From: the human T2T-CHM13v2.0 reference genome, Homo sapiens
DNA: 64,000 nt
Assembly (NCBI RefSeq): GCF_009914755.1
Contig: NC_060930.1
Reading direction: 5' to 3' (one strand)
Position 1 is the first letter of the stretch. Each line of letters begins with the position of its first letter. Shown in pieces: positions 2,953 through 30,769 of this stretch. Made by a program: the position numbers and the translations under genes. A model generated the notes under the pieces. That model was not told the DNA's origin. It searched no databases and saw only the letters and a program-made list of their open reading frames with translations.

Positions 2953-3338
2953 CTCTTTCTTTCTCTCTCTTTCTTTCTCTTTCTCTCTCTCTCTCTCTTT
3001 CTCTTTCTTTCTCTCTCCCTCTCTCTCTCTTTATTTCTTTTCTTTTCTTTTTCATGAGATAGACTGTCACTCTGTCACCCTGGCTGGAGTGCAGTGTCAC
3101 AATCTCAGCTCACTGCAACCTCCGTCTCCCAAGTTCAAGCATTTCTCCTGCCTCAGCCTCCTGAATAGCTTGGACTACAAGCATAAGCCACCATGCCTGG
3201 CTACGTTTTTGTATTTTTGCTAGAGACAGGGTTTCACCATGTTGGTCAGGCTGGTCTCGAACTCCTGACCTCAAGTGATCCACCCGCCTCAGCCTCCCAA
3301 AGTGCTGGGATTATAGGCATGAGCCACCACACCCAGCC
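2953..3338 (-). mobile_element. Alu (S-type, antisense to + strand) with expanded (CT/TTTC)n tail
   Basis: Reverse Alu motifs: GCTGGAGTGCAGTG, CCTGCCTCAGCCTCC, CCCAAAGTGCTGGGATTATAGGCATGAGCCACC. Confidence 0.95.
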
Positions 3339-4990: not shown

Positions 4991-5926
4991 CTTGTCGGCC
5001 GACTGCGAGGTGCCAAAGAAGATGGGGATGAAGGCCAGCCAGACGATGCAAGTGGTGTACATGGTGAAGCCAATGGGCTTGGCCTCATTGAAGGTCTCGG
5101 GCACGCCGCGTGTCTTGATGGCATACACGGTGCACGTGACCATGAGCAGCATGCTGTAGCCCAGCAGGCAGATGAGCGACAGGTCCGAGATGTCACACTT
5201 GAGCACACCCCTGGCGAAGCGGGGGTCGAGTGTCCGCTGGTCCTGGAAGTCCACCACCGAGTGGGAGGGGTCCACCACAAACCACACACAGATGCCCAGC
5301 AGCTGCAGCGAGATGAGGCTGAAGGTGATGGCCAGCTGTGAGGCGGGGCTGATGAAGCGTGGGGCACTGACCGAGCGCTTGCCCTGCTCGAAGATGCGGT
5401 AGATGCGGTTGGTCTTGGTGAGCAGGGCTGCATAGCTGATGCTCATCCCTAGTCCCAGGAAGATTCGGCGCAGCGAGCAGGTGCCAAGGTCGGGCTCAGC
5501 GATCATGAGGAAGGTGGTGGCATAGCACAGGAAGATGCCTGCCAGCAGCACGTAGCTCAGTTCACGGCCCGAGGCCTTGACGATGGGCGTGTCGTTGTAG
5601 CGCACAAAGGTGATCACCACGAACAACGTGGCAGCGATGCCCACCACGGCCAGGAAGAGGGGCAGCACGGCCCAGGGCGAGCCCCACTCAAGCTTGATGA
5701 TGGGGATGGGCCGGCAGCCCGTGCGGTTCTCTGTGGGCCGCATGTCATAGGGACACGTCTTACAGGTGTAGCGGTCCACCTGGTACTGGTACCCTGTGCA
5801 AGGCTCGCAGTGCCAGCAGCAAGGCATGCCCTTCACTGTCTTCTTCCGCTCACCCGGTTGGCAGGGCAGGCTGCAGATGGAGCGGGGCAGCTGCTGCCCG
5901 CTCCCCGGCCAGTGCATCCGCTCTAT
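4991..5926 (-). CDS. GRM4: mGluR4 coding exon (exon 9, 936 nt; cysteine-rich domain + TM1-TM6)
   Basis: Acceptor ttgccag|ATA GAG, donor GAC AAG|gtgagt; [22 protein letters not shown]...CCWHCEPC...[11 protein letters not shown], with the 9-Cys domain and 7TM motifs ([23 protein letters not shown]); phase 0 to 0. Confidence 0.98.
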
Positions 5927-6905: not shown

Positions 6906-7200
6906 GGCCAGGCATGGTAGCTCAGGTCTGTAATCCCAGCACTTTGGGAGGGCAAGGCGGGAGGATCATGAGGTCAAGAGATCGAGACCAGCCTGGCCAA
7001 CATGGTGAAACCCCGTCTCTACTGAAAATACAAAAATTAGCTGGGTGTGGTGGCGTGCACCTATAATCCTAGCTACTCAGGAGGCTGAGGCAAGAGAATG
7101 GCTTGAACCCAGGAGGTAGAGGTTTCAGTGAGCCAAGATCATGCCACTGCGCTCCAGCCTGACGACAGAGCAAGATTCCGTCTCAAAAAAAAAAAAAAAA
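6906..7200 (+). mobile_element. Full-length AluS with target-site duplication
   Basis: GGCCAGGC start, poly(A) tail, TSD GAATAAAGGAAA(A)GG at 6891-6905 and 7201-7214, L1-endonuclease-type TT/AGAA site. Confidence 0.97.
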
Positions 7201-14672: not shown

Positions 14673-16245
14673 GTGGCTCATGCTTACCCAGAGCCATCGT
14701 GTGCCTGGCACCTCGCCTTCCCACAGCTCTGGGAGACAGGCTTCACTGGCCCCCTCACAGGGGAGGTAGCAAGGTTTGCAGGTGGGTGGGTGGCGTCCCA
14801 GAGCCTCACAGGAATCCTGGCACCAAGTAGGTGTTTGACACATTCCTGTAGATGGAGCTAGCTCGGAAGTGGTGGGGCTGGGACTTGAACCCAGATGTCT
14901 TTGGTTGTCCAAAAAAGTCTTCAGCACCCTGAACTGCCCCTCCTCCATTTAGCCGCTGACCTGCCTCCTTCCCCACTGTCCTGCAACCCAGGCCCTGCCC
15001 CCATTGTCTGGCCAGGCCCAACCAGGGATTAAGGACTCCCTGTCTGCAGGTCTAGAACAGGAAGGTGGCAGTGGAGAGAAAGGGGTAGGAAAATCCCCTC
15101 TCATGGGTGGGCAGGAACCCCAGGACCAGGCAGGGGCACTGCAGTTCTGGGAGGAAGCAAGACATGCATTTCTGAGAGCTGTTGTAGGAGACAAATTCCA
15201 GACACATGGCAGTGACAGTAGCAACAGTTTGAAGATGTCCTAATTGTGTCCCGGGGCACAGTGAGGCAGAGATGCATTTGGCTCTGCCATGGGTGACAGT
15301 CAGCTGGGGAACCATCCAGGGAGGATTTTCTCTGTCAAAACCCCGAAGCGTGGTTACTACGGCGACTGCAGCCTTTGTCTGCAGGTTGTAAATTGTAATT
15401 GAAATGAGTTTTCAAGGTTGAAATAATCAGAGTCCTTCTCGTCTCCCCCCTCACTTCTCCACAACTCACCAGCCCAGCCACAATCCTCCAGTTCTAGCAC
15501 TGGTACACACGTGCGTGCACACACATTGCTGAAGCAGCTCCCTCACGCCAGGGTAGACAAAATCCACCACACAGACACTCACAGGTATTCACATCTGCAT
15601 GCATAGAGTAGCAAATACACAAACCTTCATGCATTTACACATGTCTACACACACATGCATGCTCTAACACAGATGTACATATAAATGCTTCTAATATAGC
15701 TACAGCTACACATTTAACACGACACTAATACAAACACATGGGCATTCAGATTCACCCACTGGCTTAGGCTGAGAAGTCCCCAAGCAGATGCTGAGGAGGA
15801 GTTGAGAGCAAGGGTTTTATTGGTGGGTGATGCCCGGAAGCATGAGGAGGGGACAGGGAGGTGAGGTGGGGGAGGAAAGTCAACTAATGCCAGCCTGTGG
15901 GGTTCCGTCCTGCTGGGGACCTCCAGGAGACCCTGCAAACTACACCTCAGCATTGTCCCATCCACAGGGATAAATGCTCCAGCTCCGCCAGTCCTAGGCT
16001 GAGGGCTGCTCTCAGGGGCATGAGCCCCATTGGTGCACACAGGGATGGTGAGTGCTGAGGGGTACGGCTGGGGCAGCGATAGCATCTGCTAAACATGCAC
16101 TCATTCACATGTGCAGTCAAGCATCGATCCATGTCTACACCACACACCTACACAGATATAAACCTGCATTTACACAGCCTGTCTCCCAGAGCTGTGGGAA
16201 GGTGAGGTGCCAGGCACACGAAGGCTCTGGGTGAGCATGAGCCAC
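14673..16245. repeat. 70-bp inverted repeat: arms 14673-14742 and 16176-16245
   Basis: Hand alignment of the reverse complement gives 67/70 identity, no gaps; 1433-bp spacer. Confidence 0.95.
15760..16090 (-). mobile_element. Degenerate ERVL-type LTR (LTR16/LTR33-like)
   Basis: CTTAGGCT..CAAGCAGATGCTGAG..GAGCAAGGGTTTTATTGG..GTGATGCCCGGAAGCA pattern; family uncertain. Confidence 0.45.
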
Positions 16246-23531: not shown

Positions 23532-23835
23532 TTTTTTTTTTTTTTTTTTTGAGACAGAATATCACTCTGTTGCCCAGGCTGGAGTGCACTGGCACAATCT
23601 CGGCTCACTGCAACCTCCACTTCCCCAGGCTCAAGCAATTCTCGTACCTCGGCCCCCCGAGTAGCTGGGATTACAGGTGCCCACCACTAAACCCGGCTAA
23701 TTTTTGTATTTTTAGTAGAGACGGGGTTTCAGCATGTTGACCAAGCTGGTCTTGAACTCCTGACCTCAGATGAACTCCGTCCGCCTCGGCCCCCCAAAGT
23801 GCTGGGATTACAGGCATGTGCCACCACGCCCAGCC
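23532..23835 (-). mobile_element. Full-length AluS with 14-bp TSD
   Basis: Poly(T) followed by reverse Alu; AGCTCTGTGCTCTT on both sides. Confidence 0.96.
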
Positions 23836-24791
23836 GAGCTCTGTGCTCTTCTGAACCCTGCTCCAGTCCTCCTTCCCCACCTGAGCTGACAATCAGACCA
23901 AACGCCTCCCTTAGGACTGCTGGAGAGTTTCTTGAATCCTGCCCCAAGGACTAGGAGTCTGGACAGAGCCTACAGGAACTGACCAAAGCCTTCTCCCCTC
24001 CTGTCCCTCTCAAAGAGAAGATTCCAGAAAGCCCTTCCCCTTGACAACCCAGACCCCTCGACAGCCTAGGCACTGGGTCCAGGAGGCACCAGCTGTCCAT
24101 CTTGCCACCGCTTCCAGTCTTCCCACCCCATCCCCACCTCATCCATCCCCACCCTCACCCCTGATCTGATCTAGGTCTGCTGATCTAAATCAGGGTGCCC
24201 ATACAATTTTCCATCCCGCCTGGGCACTTCCAAGAACCGAAGGGGATGCTCTCAATAATTACACCAGAACACGGGAGACAGGATGCACGGTCACCCCACC
24301 CATGAGGGCTCAGCCTCCACACCCAGGCATCTTTGCACTTCTCACACCTCTATTGTGATTACTGCCTGATGCAGGCATTTGCTGAGCAGCCTCGGGCAAG
24401 TCACTTGGTCTCTCTGACTCTCCATATCCTCGTCTAGAGTGCAGGAATCTTAAGAGTTCCTAGAGTTGCTGTGAGAGTGAAATGTCTTTCACATTTTAAA
24501 GATGATGTCTTTAAAGTGTCTGAACACAGTGGATACATAGTAAACAGCAATGTTTATGTTTAGCTCACCCAGGAATACATAAGCCCCACATAAGACACAG
24601 GCACACACATCCCTTCTCTCTCAGGAACACCAGCTCACACACATGCAAAGTCATGTGCCACAGGTGTATACACAAACACTGCCACACTGGGCACACTCAC
24701 ACACTAGCACTCACTCTGCAGATCAGGTGGGTTTGGCTGTGAGCTTCTCTGGGTCCCCAGTGGTCCAGTGGCTGCAAGTCCCCGTGGGCTC

Positions 24792-26836: not shown

Positions 26837-27055
26837 CAGTAGGATTTCTCAGCCTCGGCACTGTGGACGCTCTGGGCGGGATAATTCCTGTGGGGGGCCA
26901 TCCTGTGCACCGTACGATACTGAGCAGCACCCCGACCTCTACCCACTGGAGGCCAGCAGCAGCATCCCCCAACTGTGACAACCAAAAATGGCTCCAGAAA
27001 TTGCCAAATATCCCCTTGGGGGGCAAAATCGCCCCCAGATAAGGACCATTGTTCT
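26837..27055. mobile_element. MER20 DNA transposon
   Basis: TTTCTCAGCCTCGGCACT..GGATAATTC..TCCTGTGCA..AGCAGCA..CTACCCACT..GTGACAACCAAAAATG..CTCCAGA.ATTGCCAAAT.TCCCC..GGGGGGCAAAATCGCCCC. Confidence 0.88.
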
Positions 27056-27340
27056 AAAAGTTTCTCTAATGTTCCTGAGAGAAAAAGTACTTGTCAGGCA
27101 AGTCCTGGATTCTGGTCCCAACTCTGCCACTCGCTGTACTGTGTGTGTCTCAAGCTCTCTGAGCCCTGTGTATCCATCTACTAAATGCGGGGAAGAGTGC
27201 ATCACAGGGATGCTGGGGAGGCTAAAGGAGATGTCTGTAAGGGGCCTGGCACTGGTAAGCACCATAGCAGTTATTGTTATGTTGTGTTTATTGTGGCTGG
27301 GGCTGGTATGGAAACTCTCGCTATGTGTGTGTGGTGGGTG

Positions 27341-28930
27341 GGTGGAGGCGTGTTGAATGTGTGATGGGGTAAGAGCTGTGGGGATGGATGAGCCAGGAAG
27401 GCATGAGTCTGAGAGGACCGGGGCTGGGCAGAGGTGGTTCCAGAGCCTGAGTCAGACATGGGGCAGGTGTGGATGTGGGGGGACAGATGTGGTCTTTGCA
27501 GGGACAGGCATGGGCCTGGGGGATCACACTGGGCCTGTAGGCAGACGTAGACCCGGGGGGCAGGTTTGGATGACATGGTAGCCATGGGCCTCTGGACAGG
27601 TATGGGCCAGGGCTAGAAGGCGCCATGGGCCAGGGAGCTCCCTCTGCCTCAGTATGAAGAGAGGACACTGCTGTGTGACTTTGAGCAAGTCCCTCCCCTC
27701 CTCAGGCCTCCGTGTCTTGGGAAGTACCTTGGAGAGGCAGATGTCTGCAGTCCCTCCCAGCTCCATTAATGCTGGATTCTATTGAAGGGAGGGAGGGCAG
27801 GGAAGGAGAGGGCCCAGGGAGCCTTCTCCCCATGGTGAGGACTGCCAGGTCCCTGCCAAATCAGGCCATTAACGAGAACGTCACACCTCACTCTCTGTGA
27901 GGTTCTGGCCAGAGAAGTTCGTTCCTGCCCAGGTGACTGTGGGTTCTGCCCTGAGAGGAGGGGATTCAGGGTGAGGCAGGCCCAACCTCAGCGCCATCCT
28001 GGGGCCTGTCAACCCCAGGCAGACTCTTCAGGAAAGGCCTGTCCTGTAGCCCCGGCAGGGCGGCTCCCAGCCTCTTTCAGCAGCAGACTCTCCACACACC
28101 TTCCACCCCAAAAATGTCTGAGAAGAGAGGAGGGAAGGTCTTGAATCTGGATTCAAATTCTGCTTTGTTGCACGTGGCCTAAAAGAACTCCCAGCCCAAA
28201 CCTCAGAACATAAGAGGCTGTGGGCCAAGGAAGAGAAAAGGAAGGATATGGAAAGAGGCGGAGCAGAAGGGGAAGGAAGCCGAGGAGGGATGGCAGGAGG
28301 AGCAGTCCAGGATGGTGCCGACCACCTGCACCCGCCCAGCCTTACCTCGTACGGACATCCTCTTGGGGAGGATCGTGACAGCACCCTCAGCCACCTCCTC
28401 CAGGTGCAGCACAGGTGCAATCTTGGAGCCCCAGCTGTCAGAGCCCATCCAGAAGAAATGGCCTGTCTGGTTGGCCCTTCGTGCTGCCTCCAGCACACGC
28501 CTGTAGGAACATACACCAGCCCAGCCCAGCCGTGTCTGTCCACGAAACTGCCCCCACTCCTGGCCACACTTGCTTTGGGCCCACGTCCCTCACCCCCAGA
28601 AGCCCAGGGTCCACAACTGTCCCAGCACCGATGCTTTCACCCCAAGCCATGGATTCCCCCTACCCGCTGCCCTCACCTGCTCATAGACCCATGGCTACCG
28701 CCTCATCCAACCTGCCTGCCCCTGGGCCCACGCCTGCTGCAGGCCCAGCGTGATTCTCCAGGCCTACATCTGTCCCTGCAAAGACCACACCTCTCCCCTC
28801 CAGATCCACACCCGCCCCACGTCTGACTCAGGCCCCACAACCACCTCTGCCCAGCCCCGGTCCCCTGAGACGCATGCCTTCCTGGCTCATCCACCCCCAC
28901 ATTCCTTGCCCATTCTCACACGCATCCACC
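27341..28930. repeat. Non-Alu inverted repeat flanking exon 5: arms ~27341-27601 and ~28675-28930
   Basis: Core 27377-27601 vs the reverse complement of 28675-28901 aligns at ~83% by hand; also visible as paralogous peptides on opposite strands in the ORF track (DEPGRH...TGAGQRW...LSQTWG). Confidence 0.93.
28346..28500 (-). CDS. GRM4: mGluR4 coding exon (exon 5, 155 nt; contains M309, D312, K317)
   Basis: Acceptor ttcctacag|G CGT, donor CGA G|gtaagg; [51 protein letters not shown]; phase 2 to 1. Confidence 0.97.
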
Positions 28931-30769
28931 ATCACACAACCGCCGCCCTCACCCCTCTGCACATGCTGCCTTCTGCCCACAGCTCCCTCTTCATTCACCG
29001 CCCTCTGTGCCAAAATTCCAGGTCCTTCAGAGAGCTGCTCCCCACACCCTGAGTGGGAGTGGGTGATGGAGGGAGATGGGTGTGGAGCCAGCTGCCCAGT
29101 GCTCACACACAGCCCAGTCTGCCTGTGATGGTAATATAAATCAAACCAGGGACCCAAGAGCCCAGCCCGGGGCTGAGGAGCCCACAGCAAGCGCTCAGCC
29201 AGGGCTTCATGGAGGCATGAATTAAGTGGCCCCTCAAAGACATCTCAGAGGGGAAAAACAAGGAGGAATGGGCAGAATTCCCCTAACCCAGCTCCCACAA
29301 AAAGAGACTGAGGTAGGGAGGAGGCAAGGAACTTGCTCACAGTCACACAGCAAGTGAGAGGCTGTGATACTACAAACTGTCCAGGCCCTTCCGTTGGTGA
29401 GGACCAGGGCACAGACTCCAGGGCTGGGGGGTGGCTGCTGGGCCTGTGCAGGAGGCGGCCAGCTGGGACTGGAGGGCCTGGGCTTCCAGGGAGAAACAAA
29501 TGTTTCCAGGCCCCAGAGCTTTCACCTGAGCTGGCCTTGTCCATCTCATCCCACCCCACCCTCCATCATCTCCCAACTCCTGAGGCTTTCCAGCTCTGCT
29601 CACTGGTGTAGCCCCCCCGCACCCTAGGTCACCACTAATGGCAGGTAAGGCTGCTCTCAGAACCCACACCCACACCCTATTAATACCCGTCTGCATCCGG
29701 CCAGCCTGAGATGGCCAGAGCTCCCGATCATCCAGCCCTGCAGAGTCACCTGGGTTTATTTTTACTTCTGTTTGCTTCTGAAAATGCGTGTGGATTTCCA
29801 GAAATGACCCCCGCCTCCTACCCCACTTCCCGCAGCCTGCTCTGGAAGTCAGTCTAGCTCCCTTCCAGCCCTCCCCTAGGGGCTTCTTCGCTGGGACAAA
29901 AGGCCAAGTGCTTTCAGTCCCCCTCCCAGAATGTGGGTCCATCTGAGCTGAAGGTGTCCTCAAAAACAGCAGGCCTGGAGTGAGGCACATAGCTGGGTGG
30001 GGTGTGGGAGCCTAATCTTACCAGGCTTTGGGATGGGAGTAGGGGGCAGGAAGTCAGGGAGTGGGGCCCGGTGGCTCAGAAGCTTCCCCAGGAGCTGGCT
30101 GAGCGGTGGCCATCATACACGTTCAGAGCCAGAACTCAGGGGACCTGCACACCTCAAGGGACTGGGTGCCGCCTCTGTGCAGCTCTGAGGGTGTCAGGAT
30201 GGGGCTTGAGGGCCTCCCCTCCCTGGCCTTTCGCTGCCTGAGACAACCATTGCAGTTTGTCCTTTTGGCTTTTGAGGCCGTGATGATCTTCCAGAAGCCC
30301 TCCTCCATCCCTCCAGGGACCCACCAATGGCCTGGGAGGGTATCTGTTTTGCAGCAACTCTGGAGTCCAGGTTAGAACATGAGAAATGGCTTGGGAGCAC
30401 TGGTGAGGAATAGGAGGAAGCCTCCTGGGAAGGACTGGGTACACGGAGCAGCCTTGGCTGGTCCAGTGAGGGGGAGTCTGAGGGCACAGCAGGCTCTGCC
30501 AGCCCGGGCCAGATATCTGAGGAGACCTGGCAGGGGCCACATCTGCTCTCAGCCTCCTCTCTGAAGGAGAGGTGACCAGCAGGGACTAGAGGGCCCTGCC
30601 AGATTCTAGGCAGGGCTGTATCTCCCCTTATCCTGGGGCTCCCTGAGGACAGAGCTGTGTCTCCCCTCAGGTTGGGCTCTCTGAGCCTAAGCCAAGACTA
30701 GAACCAAACACAGCCCAGAGCTCTTCTCTGTACTCTGAGCTCACCACAGAAAGGAGGGAGGGGCTGAGG

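What the first reader, a model, noticed from the sequence alone, without database searches (positions are those of the whole stretch)
27341..28930. Ancient non-Alu inverted duplication brackets exon 5 (loop-out / circRNA / editing stem)
Seen: arms ~27341-27601 and ~28675-28930 are reverse complements (~83% over the 225-bp core, hand alignment). They lie 175 nt upstream and 745 nt downstream of the 155-nt exon 5, and I do not recognise them as a transposon. By hand count about 17 of ~35 substitutions give G-U wobble pairs in the sense pre-mRNA versus about 8 giving A-C mismatches, so the duplex is better on the transcribed strand; CpG decay explains part of this. Skipping exon 5 shifts the frame through exon 6 and stops at CAA CCG TGA at the start of exon 7, and removes ligand residues D312/K317. 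Established: flanking intronic complementary sequences promote exon skipping and back-splicing and are ADAR substrates. Inference: a structural switch controlling productive GRM4 splicing, or the scar of an old inversion/template switch.
Basis: partly seen in the sequence, partly recalled or inferred. Interest (0 to 1): 0.75.

Follow-up and report, generated by a model that had tools for sequence, protein, structure and literature searches.

The report
Unique inverted duplication flanking GRM4 exon 5
Two roughly 300-base stretches that are reverse complements of each other, and occur nowhere else in the human genome, sit in the introns on either side of exon 5 of the glutamate receptor gene GRM4; they are most likely a neutral relic of an old local DNA copying accident, not a proven splicing switch.

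Summary
Window 27325-27628 and 28647-28952 are reverse complements: 241 of 301 ungapped columns are identical (80%), and the core is 83%. They bracket the 155-nt exon 5, and skipping that exon shifts the frame to a TGA just inside exon 7.

The arms are not a repeat family. Each arm finds only itself and its partner in the 3.1-Gb genome. A shared 25-mer with up to 3 mismatches occurs exactly twice. An Alu run as a control gave 8559 candidates.

The RNA duplex is strong: cofold -503 kcal/mol against -259 for shuffles, and 258 arm-to-arm pairs persist in a 1681-nt fold.

The arms give 24 G-U wobbles against 12 A-C mismatches on the sense strand. All 12 inverted Alu pairs in the same introns show the same bias (273:168), and the sense duplex is the more stable in 12 of 12. 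This is locus-wide mutational strand asymmetry.

I found no evidence of skipping, an exon-5 circle or editing here.

Verdict: a real, old, locus-specific inverted duplication with structural potential and no shown function.

The parts
28647..28952 (-). Upstream arm in the pre-mRNA (intron 4). It is G-rich on the sense strand, carries 11 CpG, and ends 147 nt before the exon 5 acceptor.
   Evidence: Alignment; composition; CpG count; genome-wide only self plus partner.
27325..27628 (-). Downstream arm in the pre-mRNA (intron 5). It is C-rich on the sense strand, carries 5 CpG, and starts 718 nt after the exon 5 donor.
   Evidence: Alignment; composition; CpG count; genome-wide only self plus partner.
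28346..28500 (-). GRM4 exon 5, 155 nt, enclosed by the arms. It encodes [26 protein letters not shown]... Skipping it shifts the frame.
   Evidence: Hub annotation; frame and splice sites; 100% match to solved mGlu4 chains.
27629..28646 (-). The 1018-nt segment between the arms. It would form the loop of the predicted stem and contains exon 5 with both of its splice sites.
   Evidence: Coordinates. In the 1681-nt sense-strand fold, 258 of 634 pairs are arm-to-arm.
27669..27703 (.). One half of a second, short complementary pair (35 nt, 89%) whose partner is at 29318-29352. It is not colinear with the main arms and crosses them topologically.
   Evidence: Pair I4. The offset differs by 745 from that of the main pair.
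29318..29352 (.). The other half of the 35-nt complementary pair, in intron 4 upstream of the main upstream arm.
   Evidence: Pair I4.

Best explanation
A single local DNA rearrangement copied about 300 bp of GRM4 intron sequence in inverted orientation to the other side of exon 5. The likely mechanism is a templated insertion, or a replication or repair template switch. This happened tens of millions of years ago, and both copies have since drifted apart neutrally to about 80% identity.

As a by-product, the pre-mRNA can fold into an imperfect duplex of about 260 bp that loops out a 1018-nt segment carrying exon 5. I infer that this duplex forms in some fraction of transcripts. It could cause promiscuous intronic A-to-I editing and, at most, low-level exon 5 skipping (giving a nonsense-mediated decay substrate) or back-splicing. 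I do not think it is a selected or regulated switch.

- **Shown:** the duplication, its uniqueness in the genome, the thermodynamic potential, and the frame consequence of skipping.
- **Inferred:** the mechanism of origin, the neutrality, and the low functional impact.
For: - **Two copies only.** Arm A and arm B each give 2 first-look candidates, self and partner, in the 3.1-Gb genome (at E<=0.01; at E<=10). The 25-nt shared core with up to 3 mismatches occurs at exactly 2 places, with 0 for the reversed control. The same tool returns 8559 candidates for an Alu from the window.
- **Divergence looks like neutral decay.** There are 36 transitions and 24 transversions in 301 columns. K2P is 0.235 overall and 0.198 for the core. 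The longest exact match is 25 nt.
- **The sense-strand bias matches the locus background.** The arms give 24:12 wobble against mismatch. Twelve inverted Alu pairs give 273:168, with every pair in the same direction. The binomial test of the arms against that background gives p = 0.34 one-sided, and Fisher's test gives p = 0.72.
- **The energy bias matches too.** The sense duplex is more stable in 12 of 12 Alu pairs, by 3 to 49 kcal/mol. The arms differ by 31 kcal/mol.
- **This agrees with published strand asymmetry.** An excess of A->G over T->C on the non-template strand, and a G+T excess, are reported for mammalian introns (PMC2927911, passages read). The window's introns show G>C and T>A skews of about 0.13 on the sense strand.
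- **The same kind of event recurs nearby without enclosing an exon.** A 70-nt, 96% identical, genome-unique inverted pair lies at 14673-14742/16176-16245 in intron 6.
- **A 155-nt exon is short for efficient circularisation.** In a minigene study, exons of 400 nt or less circularised poorly (PMC4201285, section 12 read).
Against: - The geometry is what known structural splicing and circRNA elements look like. The arms lie in the two introns flanking one exon. No competing within-intron inverted repeat of 28 nt or more exists between exons 4 and 6. The duplex is very stable (-503 kcal/mol against -259 +/- 8 for 30 shuffles) and survives in a 1681-nt fold (258 arm-to-arm pairs).
- Inverted repeats of 30-40 nt are enough for back-splicing in minigenes (PMC4201285, abstract).
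- Three circBase circRNAs map to GRM4 (PMC9609391, table passage). I could not see their coordinates, so an exon-5 circle is not excluded.
- Neutrality is inferred from one genome. No orthologous sequence was available, so conservation and compensatory change were never tested.
- The Alu control uses 7 elements in 12 non-independent pairs.
Confidence: 0.6

Rival explanations
1. The arms are a selected RNA structural switch. Their pairing in the pre-mRNA loops out exon 5 and sets the ratio of productive mRNA to an exon-5-skipped, nonsense-mediated-decay-targeted transcript, or drives back-splicing of exon 5 into a 155-nt circle.
For: - The flanking-intron geometry holds, with no within-intron competitor of 28 nt or more.
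- The duplex is long and stable.
- Skipping gives a frameshift and an early stop.
- Short intronic repeats suffice for circularisation in minigenes (PMC4201285, abstract).
- GRM4 circRNAs exist in circBase and in rodents (PMC9609391; reviews citing Eyob 2021).
Against: - The sense-strand wobble excess is not above the Alu-pair background. On its own it is only p = 0.065, and it is confounded by arm A being AT-shifted relative to arm B (25:11, p = 0.029; CpG 5 against 11).
- The 155-nt exon is short for circularisation.
- The two rat circGrm4 records I saw span 879 bp and 32.5 kb, not a lone exon of about 155 nt. These were 2 of 9 occurrences shown in supplementary file 4 of PMC11961807.
- Full-text searches for GRM4 with circRNA, circGRM4, exon skipping and A-to-I editing returned nothing about exon 5 or these introns.
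- The upstream arm is transcribed about 1.3 kb before its partner, so exon 5 may be defined first (inference).
Confidence: 0.1
2. The duplex forms and is mainly a promiscuous ADAR substrate. It would behave as hyper-edited intronic double-stranded RNA, like inverted Alu pairs, with no effect on splicing.
For: - The predicted duplex has about 260 base pairs with scattered mismatches.
- There are 54 and 59 adenosines in the two arms.
- ADARs act on duplexes formed by inverted repeats (background statement in PMC8457003).
Against: - No RNA data were available.
- The only validated GRM4 editing sites, Q124R and K129R, use a wholly exonic 127-bp duplex elsewhere in the gene (PMC8457003, passages).
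- This is an added property of the neutral relic and is compatible with the best explanation. It is not a separate origin.
Confidence: 0.2
3. The arms are two independent insertions of one interspersed repeat family in opposite orientations.
For: - The genome search tool is blind to very old repeats. A neighbouring piece that I take, from recall, to be a MIR found only itself.
- No Dfam or RepeatMasker annotation with family names was available.
Against: - Two independent copies that are 80% alike imply a family whose other members would be about as similar. None exists among first-look candidates (2 of 2 are self and partner), and none matches the 25-mer with up to 3 mismatches. The same tool found 8559 candidates for an Alu at 85-88% identity.
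- The hub's list of its longest masked stretches names none inside 27325-28952. That list is incomplete.
Confidence: 0.03
4. The arms are the duplicated breakpoints of an ancient inversion of the intervening 1 kb (the staggered-break model), or they now mediate inversion of exon 5 by recombination between the arms.
For: Inverted duplications at the edges of a segment are the expected signature of staggered-break inversions (recalled, not checked here).
Against: - Exon 5 lies between the arms in the correct orientation and is 100% identical to the expressed protein. A fixed inversion would have destroyed the gene unless it was reverted.
- The longest exact match between the arms is 25 nt at 80% identity. 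That is poor substrate for homologous recombination.
Confidence: 0.04

Closest known systems
Non-repetitive intronic complementary sequences (reverse complementary matches) that flank circularised or skipped exons
   Same: - Reverse-complementary stretches lie in the two introns flanking an exon.
- They are far longer than the 30-40 nt that suffices in minigenes (PMC4201285, abstract).
- Non-repetitive complementary sequences are an accepted class alongside Alu pairs (PMC8391333, passage).
   Different: - No back-splice or skipping product of exon 5 is documented in anything I could read.
- The enclosed exon is only 155 nt, in a size range that circularised poorly in that minigene study.
- Function here is only potential.
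Inverted Alu pairs in introns (the usual human source of intronic double-stranded RNA, circRNA-flanking pairing and hyper-editing)
   Same: - Arm length (about 300 nt) and pairwise identity (77-87% for Alu pairs, 80% for the arms) are similar.
- Duplex energies are similar (-367 to -481 kcal/mol against -503).
- The sense-strand G-U bias is the same.
   Different: The arms exist only twice in the genome, against thousands of candidates for an Alu. They arose by local duplication, not retrotransposition.
The validated GRM4 Q124R/K129R editing duplex
   Same: It is an RNA duplex in the same gene, and it is a proven ADAR substrate (PMC8457003).
   Different: That duplex is 127 bp, wholly exonic, lies in a different part of the gene, is conserved across mammals and was validated by compensatory mutagenesis. 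The arms here are intronic, have not been tested, and are unrelated to it.
Small local inverted duplications from replication or repair template switching
   Same: - There are two copies, in cis, inverted, about a kilobase apart, and found nowhere else.
- A second, younger example lies in the same gene at 14673-14742/16176-16245.
   Different: The mechanism is inferred. I did not find or test junction microhomology or a target-site signature, and I cannot say which arm is the original.

Membership tests
Interspersed repeat (transposon) family | Multiple dispersed copies in the genome at a similarity comparable to that between the two arms | tested here: not met
   Each arm finds only itself and its partner. 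The 25-mer core with up to 3 mismatches occurs at 2 places in 3.1 Gb. The Alu positive control gave 8559 candidates. Caveat: the tool misses very old repeats.
Interspersed repeat (transposon) family | Match to a curated repeat consensus (Dfam/Repbase) | not testable with these tools
   No repeat library was available. The hub's partial mask list names no stretch inside the arms.
Intronic complementary sequence pair promoting back-splicing or skipping | Reverse-complementary sequences located in the two introns that flank the exon | tested here: met
   The arms lie in intron 4 and intron 5, at 147 nt and 718 nt from exon 5.
Intronic complementary sequence pair promoting back-splicing or skipping | Cross-exon pairing not out-competed by pairing within a single intron | tested here: met
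   Between exons 4 and 6, the only inverted repeats of 28 nt or more are the arm pair and one 35-nt pair that also spans exon 5. The arm pairing persists in the 1681-nt minimum-free-energy fold.
Intronic complementary sequence pair promoting back-splicing or skipping | An observed back-splice junction or skipped isoform for the enclosed exon | not testable with these tools
   No RNA-seq data were available. The coordinates of hsa_circ_0076039/40/41 were not seen. The rat circGrm4 spans seen do not fit a lone short exon.
Evolutionarily selected RNA secondary structure | Base-pair-preserving substitutions in excess of the neutral expectation | tested here: not met
   Within the one genome available, the arms give 24:12 wobble against mismatch and the Alu-pair background gives 273:168 (p = 0.34). 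The sense duplex is more stable in 12 of 12 Alu pairs as well.
Evolutionarily selected RNA secondary structure | Covariation (double compensatory changes) across orthologues | not testable with these tools
   No other vertebrate genome is held. The genome search states that G000 has no relatives here.
ADAR substrate (intronic double-stranded RNA) | Long, largely uninterrupted intramolecular duplex | tested here: met
   There are 264 intermolecular pairs at -503 kcal/mol, and 258 pairs in context. This is a prediction only.
ADAR substrate (intronic double-stranded RNA) | Observed A-to-G RNA-DNA differences | not testable with these tools
   No editing database or reads were available. The papers found report only the exonic Q124R/K129R sites.
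Local inverted duplication (template switch or templated insertion) | Exactly two copies, on the same chromosome, close together, in opposite orientation | tested here: met
Local inverted duplication (template switch or templated insertion) | Junction microhomology, or identification of the donor copy against the inserted copy | not tested
   I only read the flanks by eye in the output. No outgroup was available to define the pre-duplication state.

The most novel reading that the evidence does not exclude
The arm pair is a lineage-specific (possibly primate-wide) cis-acting RNA switch. By looping out exon 5, it diverts a regulated share of GRM4 pre-mRNA into an exon-5-skipped transcript that is destroyed by nonsense-mediated decay, or into a 155-nt exon-5 circle. 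It would thereby tune mGlu4 receptor levels in cerebellar neurons. That would be a non-transposon, duplication-born example of structure-controlled unproductive splicing in a drug-target gene. My evidence does not exclude it, because no RNA data and no orthologues could be examined. What I removed is only the strand-bias argument for it.
Probability: 0.08. Interest if true: 0.6.

Novelty: new member of a known kind. Interest (0 to 1): 0.25.

Why it matters
If the duplex acted on splicing, it would be a handle on GRM4 (mGlu4) dosage, and mGlu4 is a pursued drug target. It would also be a clean non-Alu model of structure-driven exon exclusion.

As it stands, the value is mostly methodological. 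An apparent 'better duplex on the transcribed strand' is the default for any inverted repeat inside this gene. Transcription-associated mutation bias turns Watson-Crick pairs into G-U on the sense RNA more often than into A-C. The 12-of-12 Alu-pair control shows that this signal must not be read as selection for RNA structure without a local background.

Tried and rejected
- **Transposon origin.** Rejected on copy number. The remaining caveat is that the tool cannot see very old families.
- **Wobble excess as selection.** Rejected against the Alu-pair background. It is also weak on its own (p = 0.065) and confounded by arm-specific GC-to-AT decay (25:11, p = 0.029).
- **CpG decay as the cause of the bias.** The 8 CpG-linked differences split 5 to wobble and 3 to mismatch, so this is not the driver.
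- **Known RNA families.** An Rfam scan of 27000-29400 gave only a sub-threshold mir-345 match (20 bits against a gathering score of 65, E = 0.41), outside the arms.
- **Link to the known GRM4 editing site.** Rejected, because that duplex is exonic and elsewhere in the gene.
- **Coordinates of the human GRM4 circRNAs.** Two full-text searches found only the one paper. Its supplementary zip yielded 61 characters of text with no hit, so this stays open.
- **The primary mouse circGrm4 paper** (Eyob 2021) is not held. I saw it only as cited in reviews.
- **The rat supplement** gave two circGrm4 spans that I cannot map to exons.
- **GRM4 with 'exon skipping'.** Five papers, none relevant. I opened one and judged the other four from their listing alone.
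- **Runs of perfect identity as a sign of gene conversion.** The longest run is 25 nt. I estimated by hand that about 0.4 such runs are expected at 17% mismatch, so it is not remarkable. I ran no formal test.
Full report
**1. The observation**

The window contains a genuine inverted repeat around GRM4 exon 5.
- The repeat finder reports three colinear blocks: 27358-27482/28796-28920 (125 nt, 85%), 27479-27540/28737-28798 (62 nt, 84%) and 27566-27616/28660-28710 (51 nt, 75%).
- A gapped local alignment joins and extends them to 27325-27628 against 28952-28647: 309 columns, 241 matches, 8 gap columns.
- Ungapped identity is 241/301 (80%) overall, 213/257 (83%) in 27358-27616, and 189/223 (85%) in 27358-27582.
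- Within the window, the arm-to-arm blastn E-value is 1e-62. The next hit is a 47-nt match at E = 4e-4.

GRM4 is on the minus strand. In the transcript, 28647-28952 is therefore the upstream arm (intron 4, ending 147 nt before the acceptor) and 27325-27628 is the downstream arm (intron 5, starting 718 nt after the donor).

- Exon 5 is 155 nt and has an ordinary polypyrimidine-AG acceptor and a GTAAG donor.
- Skipping it shifts the frame, and after 49 residues the frame reaches the TGA of CAACCGTGA, 4 nt into exon 7.
- Its peptide is 100% identical to solved mGlu4 chains and carries the GSDSWGSK stretch.
- I did not verify the residue numbers D312 and K317.

**2. What the arms are**

They are not an interspersed repeat.
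- Searching the window's own 3.1-Gb genome with arm A (E<=0.01) and with arm B (E<=10) gave 2 first-look candidates each, the arm itself and its partner at 81% identity.
- The longest shared exact stretch, 25 nt at 27415-27439, allowed up to 3 mismatches, occurs at exactly two places in the genome. The reversed control gave none.
- As a positive control, an Alu from the window (23545-23840) gave 8559 first-look candidates. Forty were scored, giving 41 matches at E<=0.01: the query itself, 39 other Alus at 85-88% identity, and one short 107-nt match at 73%.
- As a sensitivity control, a neighbouring piece that I take from recall to be a MIR (27636-27770) found only itself. The tool therefore cannot see very old families.

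That blind spot does not rescue the transposon reading. Two independent insertions that are still 80% alike imply a young enough family that its other members would be found as easily as the partner was.

The arms are therefore a locus-specific inverted duplication.

**3. Age**

- K2P distance between the arms is 0.235 overall and 0.198 for the core.
- Transversion divergence is 0.058 per site (core) to 0.080 (whole). The 21 pairwise comparisons of the seven Alus in the window have a median of 0.050 and a range of 0.029-0.086.
- The duplication is thus at least as old as the local Alus.
- With recalled mammalian neutral rates, this means tens of millions of years, roughly 50-100 Myr. I could not narrow this down, because no other vertebrate genome is held (one search states that G000 has no relatives here).
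- 'Ancient' is fair. 'Pan-mammalian' is not shown.

**4. Structural potential**

- Cofolding the two arms as sense RNA gives -503.0 kcal/mol with 264 intermolecular pairs, 21 of them G-U.
- The plus-strand RNA gives -471.6 kcal/mol with 255 pairs, 12 of them G-U.
- Thirty shuffles of one arm average -259.4 +/- 7.8 kcal/mol.
- Folding the whole 1681-nt sense segment (27300-28980) keeps 258 arm-to-arm pairs out of 634. The minimum free energy is -970.4 kcal/mol, against -883.5 for the plus strand.
- Between exons 4 and 6, the only inverted repeats of 28 nt or more are this pair and one 35-nt, 89% pair (27669-27703/29318-29352). That pair also spans exon 5 but crosses the main stem topologically.

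It matches the known class of flanking intronic complementary sequences, which may be non-repetitive (PMC8391333, passage) and need only 30-40 nt in minigenes (PMC4201285, abstract).

**5. The argument for selection**

The count is right: 24:12 overall, 20:9 in the core, 16:8 in the inner 225 bp. There are three reasons not to read it as selection.
- **It is weak.** The two-sided binomial p is 0.065, 0.061 and 0.152 for the three spans.
- **It is confounded.** The same 36 transitions split 25:11 by whether arm A or arm B carries the A/T state (p = 0.029), and arm A keeps 5 CpG against 11 in arm B. On a G-rich strand, that alone generates the dominant class.
- **It matches the local background, which is the decisive point.** I took the seven Alus of the window, three in one orientation and four in the other, all in GRM4 introns. 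I scored all 12 inverted pairs in the same way.
  - Every pair shows more sense-strand wobbles than mismatches. The total is 273:168, a ratio of 1.63 with a range of 1.04-2.64.
  - The arms' 24:12 is not different from this (binomial p = 0.34 one-sided; Fisher p = 0.72).
  - The sense-strand duplex is more stable than the plus-strand duplex in 12 of 12 Alu pairs, by 3 to 49 kcal/mol. The arms' difference of 31 kcal/mol falls in the middle of that range.
  - These pairs lie up to about 55 kb apart and were independent insertions, so structural selection cannot be the cause.

The pattern fits the published transcription-associated asymmetry: an excess of A->G over T->C on the non-template strand of mammalian introns, and a resulting G+T excess (PMC2927911, passages). 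It also fits the sense-strand skews of this window's introns, with G over C at 0.13 and T over A at 0.13. Those skews are partly inflated by long CA-rich arrays. The 12 pairs share 7 elements and are not independent, but the direction is unanimous.

**6. Direct evidence for a product**

I had no RNA data. The literature gave the following.
- Three circBase circRNAs (hsa_circ_0076039, hsa_circ_0076040, hsa_circ_0076041) map to GRM4 (PMC9609391, table passage). Their coordinates appear in no searchable text, and the paper's supplement yielded nothing readable.
- A mouse circGrm4 is cited in reviews. The primary paper is not held.
- In a rat data set, the two circGrm4 records I saw span 879 bp and 32,460 bp (2 of 9 occurrences shown in supplementary file 4 of PMC11961807). 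Neither fits a lone exon of about 155 nt.
- In the ZKSCAN1 minigene system, exons of 400 nt or less circularised poorly or not at all, although a 360-nt and a 336-nt exon from other genes did circularise (PMC4201285, section 12). A 155-nt circle is therefore possible but disfavoured.
- The only validated GRM4 editing sites, Q124R and K129R, rest on a wholly exonic 127-bp duplex elsewhere in the gene (PMC8457003, passages).
- Searches for GRM4 with circRNA, circGRM4, A-to-I editing and exon skipping returned nothing on exon 5 or its introns.
- Supplements that I could not see may hold relevant junction or editing tables.

**7. Most likely explanation**

A one-off local rearrangement placed an inverted copy of about 300 bp of intron on the other side of exon 5. 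The mechanism was probably a templated insertion or a template switch during replication or repair. The two copies then decayed neutrally.

A second, younger event of the same kind lies in intron 6: 14673-14742/16176-16245, 70 nt, 67/70 identical, 1433 nt apart, and again only two copies in the genome. It encloses no exon, which shows that such events happen here without any relation to splicing.

The pre-mRNA duplex is a by-product. I expect some intronic editing and, at most, minor skipping or back-splicing.

An inversion scar in the strict sense is unlikely. Exon 5 is in the correct orientation, and the arms share no exact run longer than 25 nt.

I put about 0.6 on the neutral-relic reading as a whole. 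Within it, I put about 0.9 on the narrower statement that this is a locus-specific duplication and not a transposon. I put about 0.1 on a selected splicing or circRNA switch.

**8. Comparison with what is known, and novelty**

- The feature behaves like an inverted Alu pair in length, identity, energy and strand bias, but it is unique in the genome.
- It qualifies structurally as a non-repetitive intronic complementary sequence pair. The defining functional feature of that class, an observed product, could not be tested.
- I found no description of it in print.
- It is a new member of a known kind, of modest interest.
- The most useful outcome is the control, which shows that a sense-strand G-U excess is the neutral default inside this gene.

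Noticed in passing
window 14673-14742 and 16176-16245: A second locus-specific inverted repeat lies in GRM4 intron 6. It is 70 nt, 67/70 identical, with 1433 nt between the arms and only these two copies in the genome. It encloses no exon. It looks like a younger event of the same mutational kind.
   Followed up: partly
window 27669-27703 and 29318-29352: A 35-nt, 89% complementary pair also spans exon 5. It is not colinear with the main arms and would cross the main stem, so the two pairings are mutually exclusive. From recall it resembles the conserved core of MIR elements in opposite orientations. A genome search with 27636-27770 found only itself, so the family assignment is unconfirmed.
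   Followed up: partly
window 3048-3338 and 6911-7190: An inverted Alu pair brackets the 936-nt exon 9 (4991-5926). This is a more classical arrangement for exon circularisation than the exon 5 pair, and a candidate source of the circBase GRM4 circRNAs whose coordinates I could not see.
   Followed up: no
whole window, GRM4 introns: There is strong strand asymmetry. On the sense strand, the intronic G-over-C and T-over-A skews are both about 0.13 (partly from long CA-rich arrays). All 12 inverted Alu pairs give more G-U than A-C on the sense RNA (273:168), and the sense duplex is more stable in 12 of 12.
   Followed up: yes
window 28448-28592, minus strand: Reading the exon 5 frame back into intron 4, the nearest in-frame stop is 92 nt upstream of the exon (28590-28592). 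The first in-frame ATG after it is the Met of FFWMGSD inside exon 5 (28448). A transcript starting in intron 4 would therefore encode a receptor lacking roughly the first 300 residues. A truncated taste-bud mGluR4 lacking about half of the N-terminal domain is described in rat (PMC4515277, passage). That its 5' end lies in this intron is my recollection only.
   Followed up: partly
window 28580-28605, minus strand: A canonical four-run G-quadruplex motif lies on the sense strand, between the upstream arm and the exon 5 acceptor. The whole upstream arm is G-rich (150 G in 306 nt) and folds on its own to -105.6 kcal/mol. That could compete with long-range pairing.
   Followed up: no
window 27325-27628 versus 28647-28952: The two arms have decayed unequally. 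Arm A keeps 5 CpG (observed/expected 0.23) and arm B keeps 11 (0.48). At 25 of 36 transition sites, arm A carries the A/T state. This may reflect a local difference in methylation or in GC-biased repair close to the exon. It remains unexplained.
   Followed up: partly
window 29136-29227, minus strand: A weak Rfam match to the mir-345 precursor model scores 20.2 bits against a gathering score of 65 (E = 0.41). It is most likely chance.
   Followed up: no
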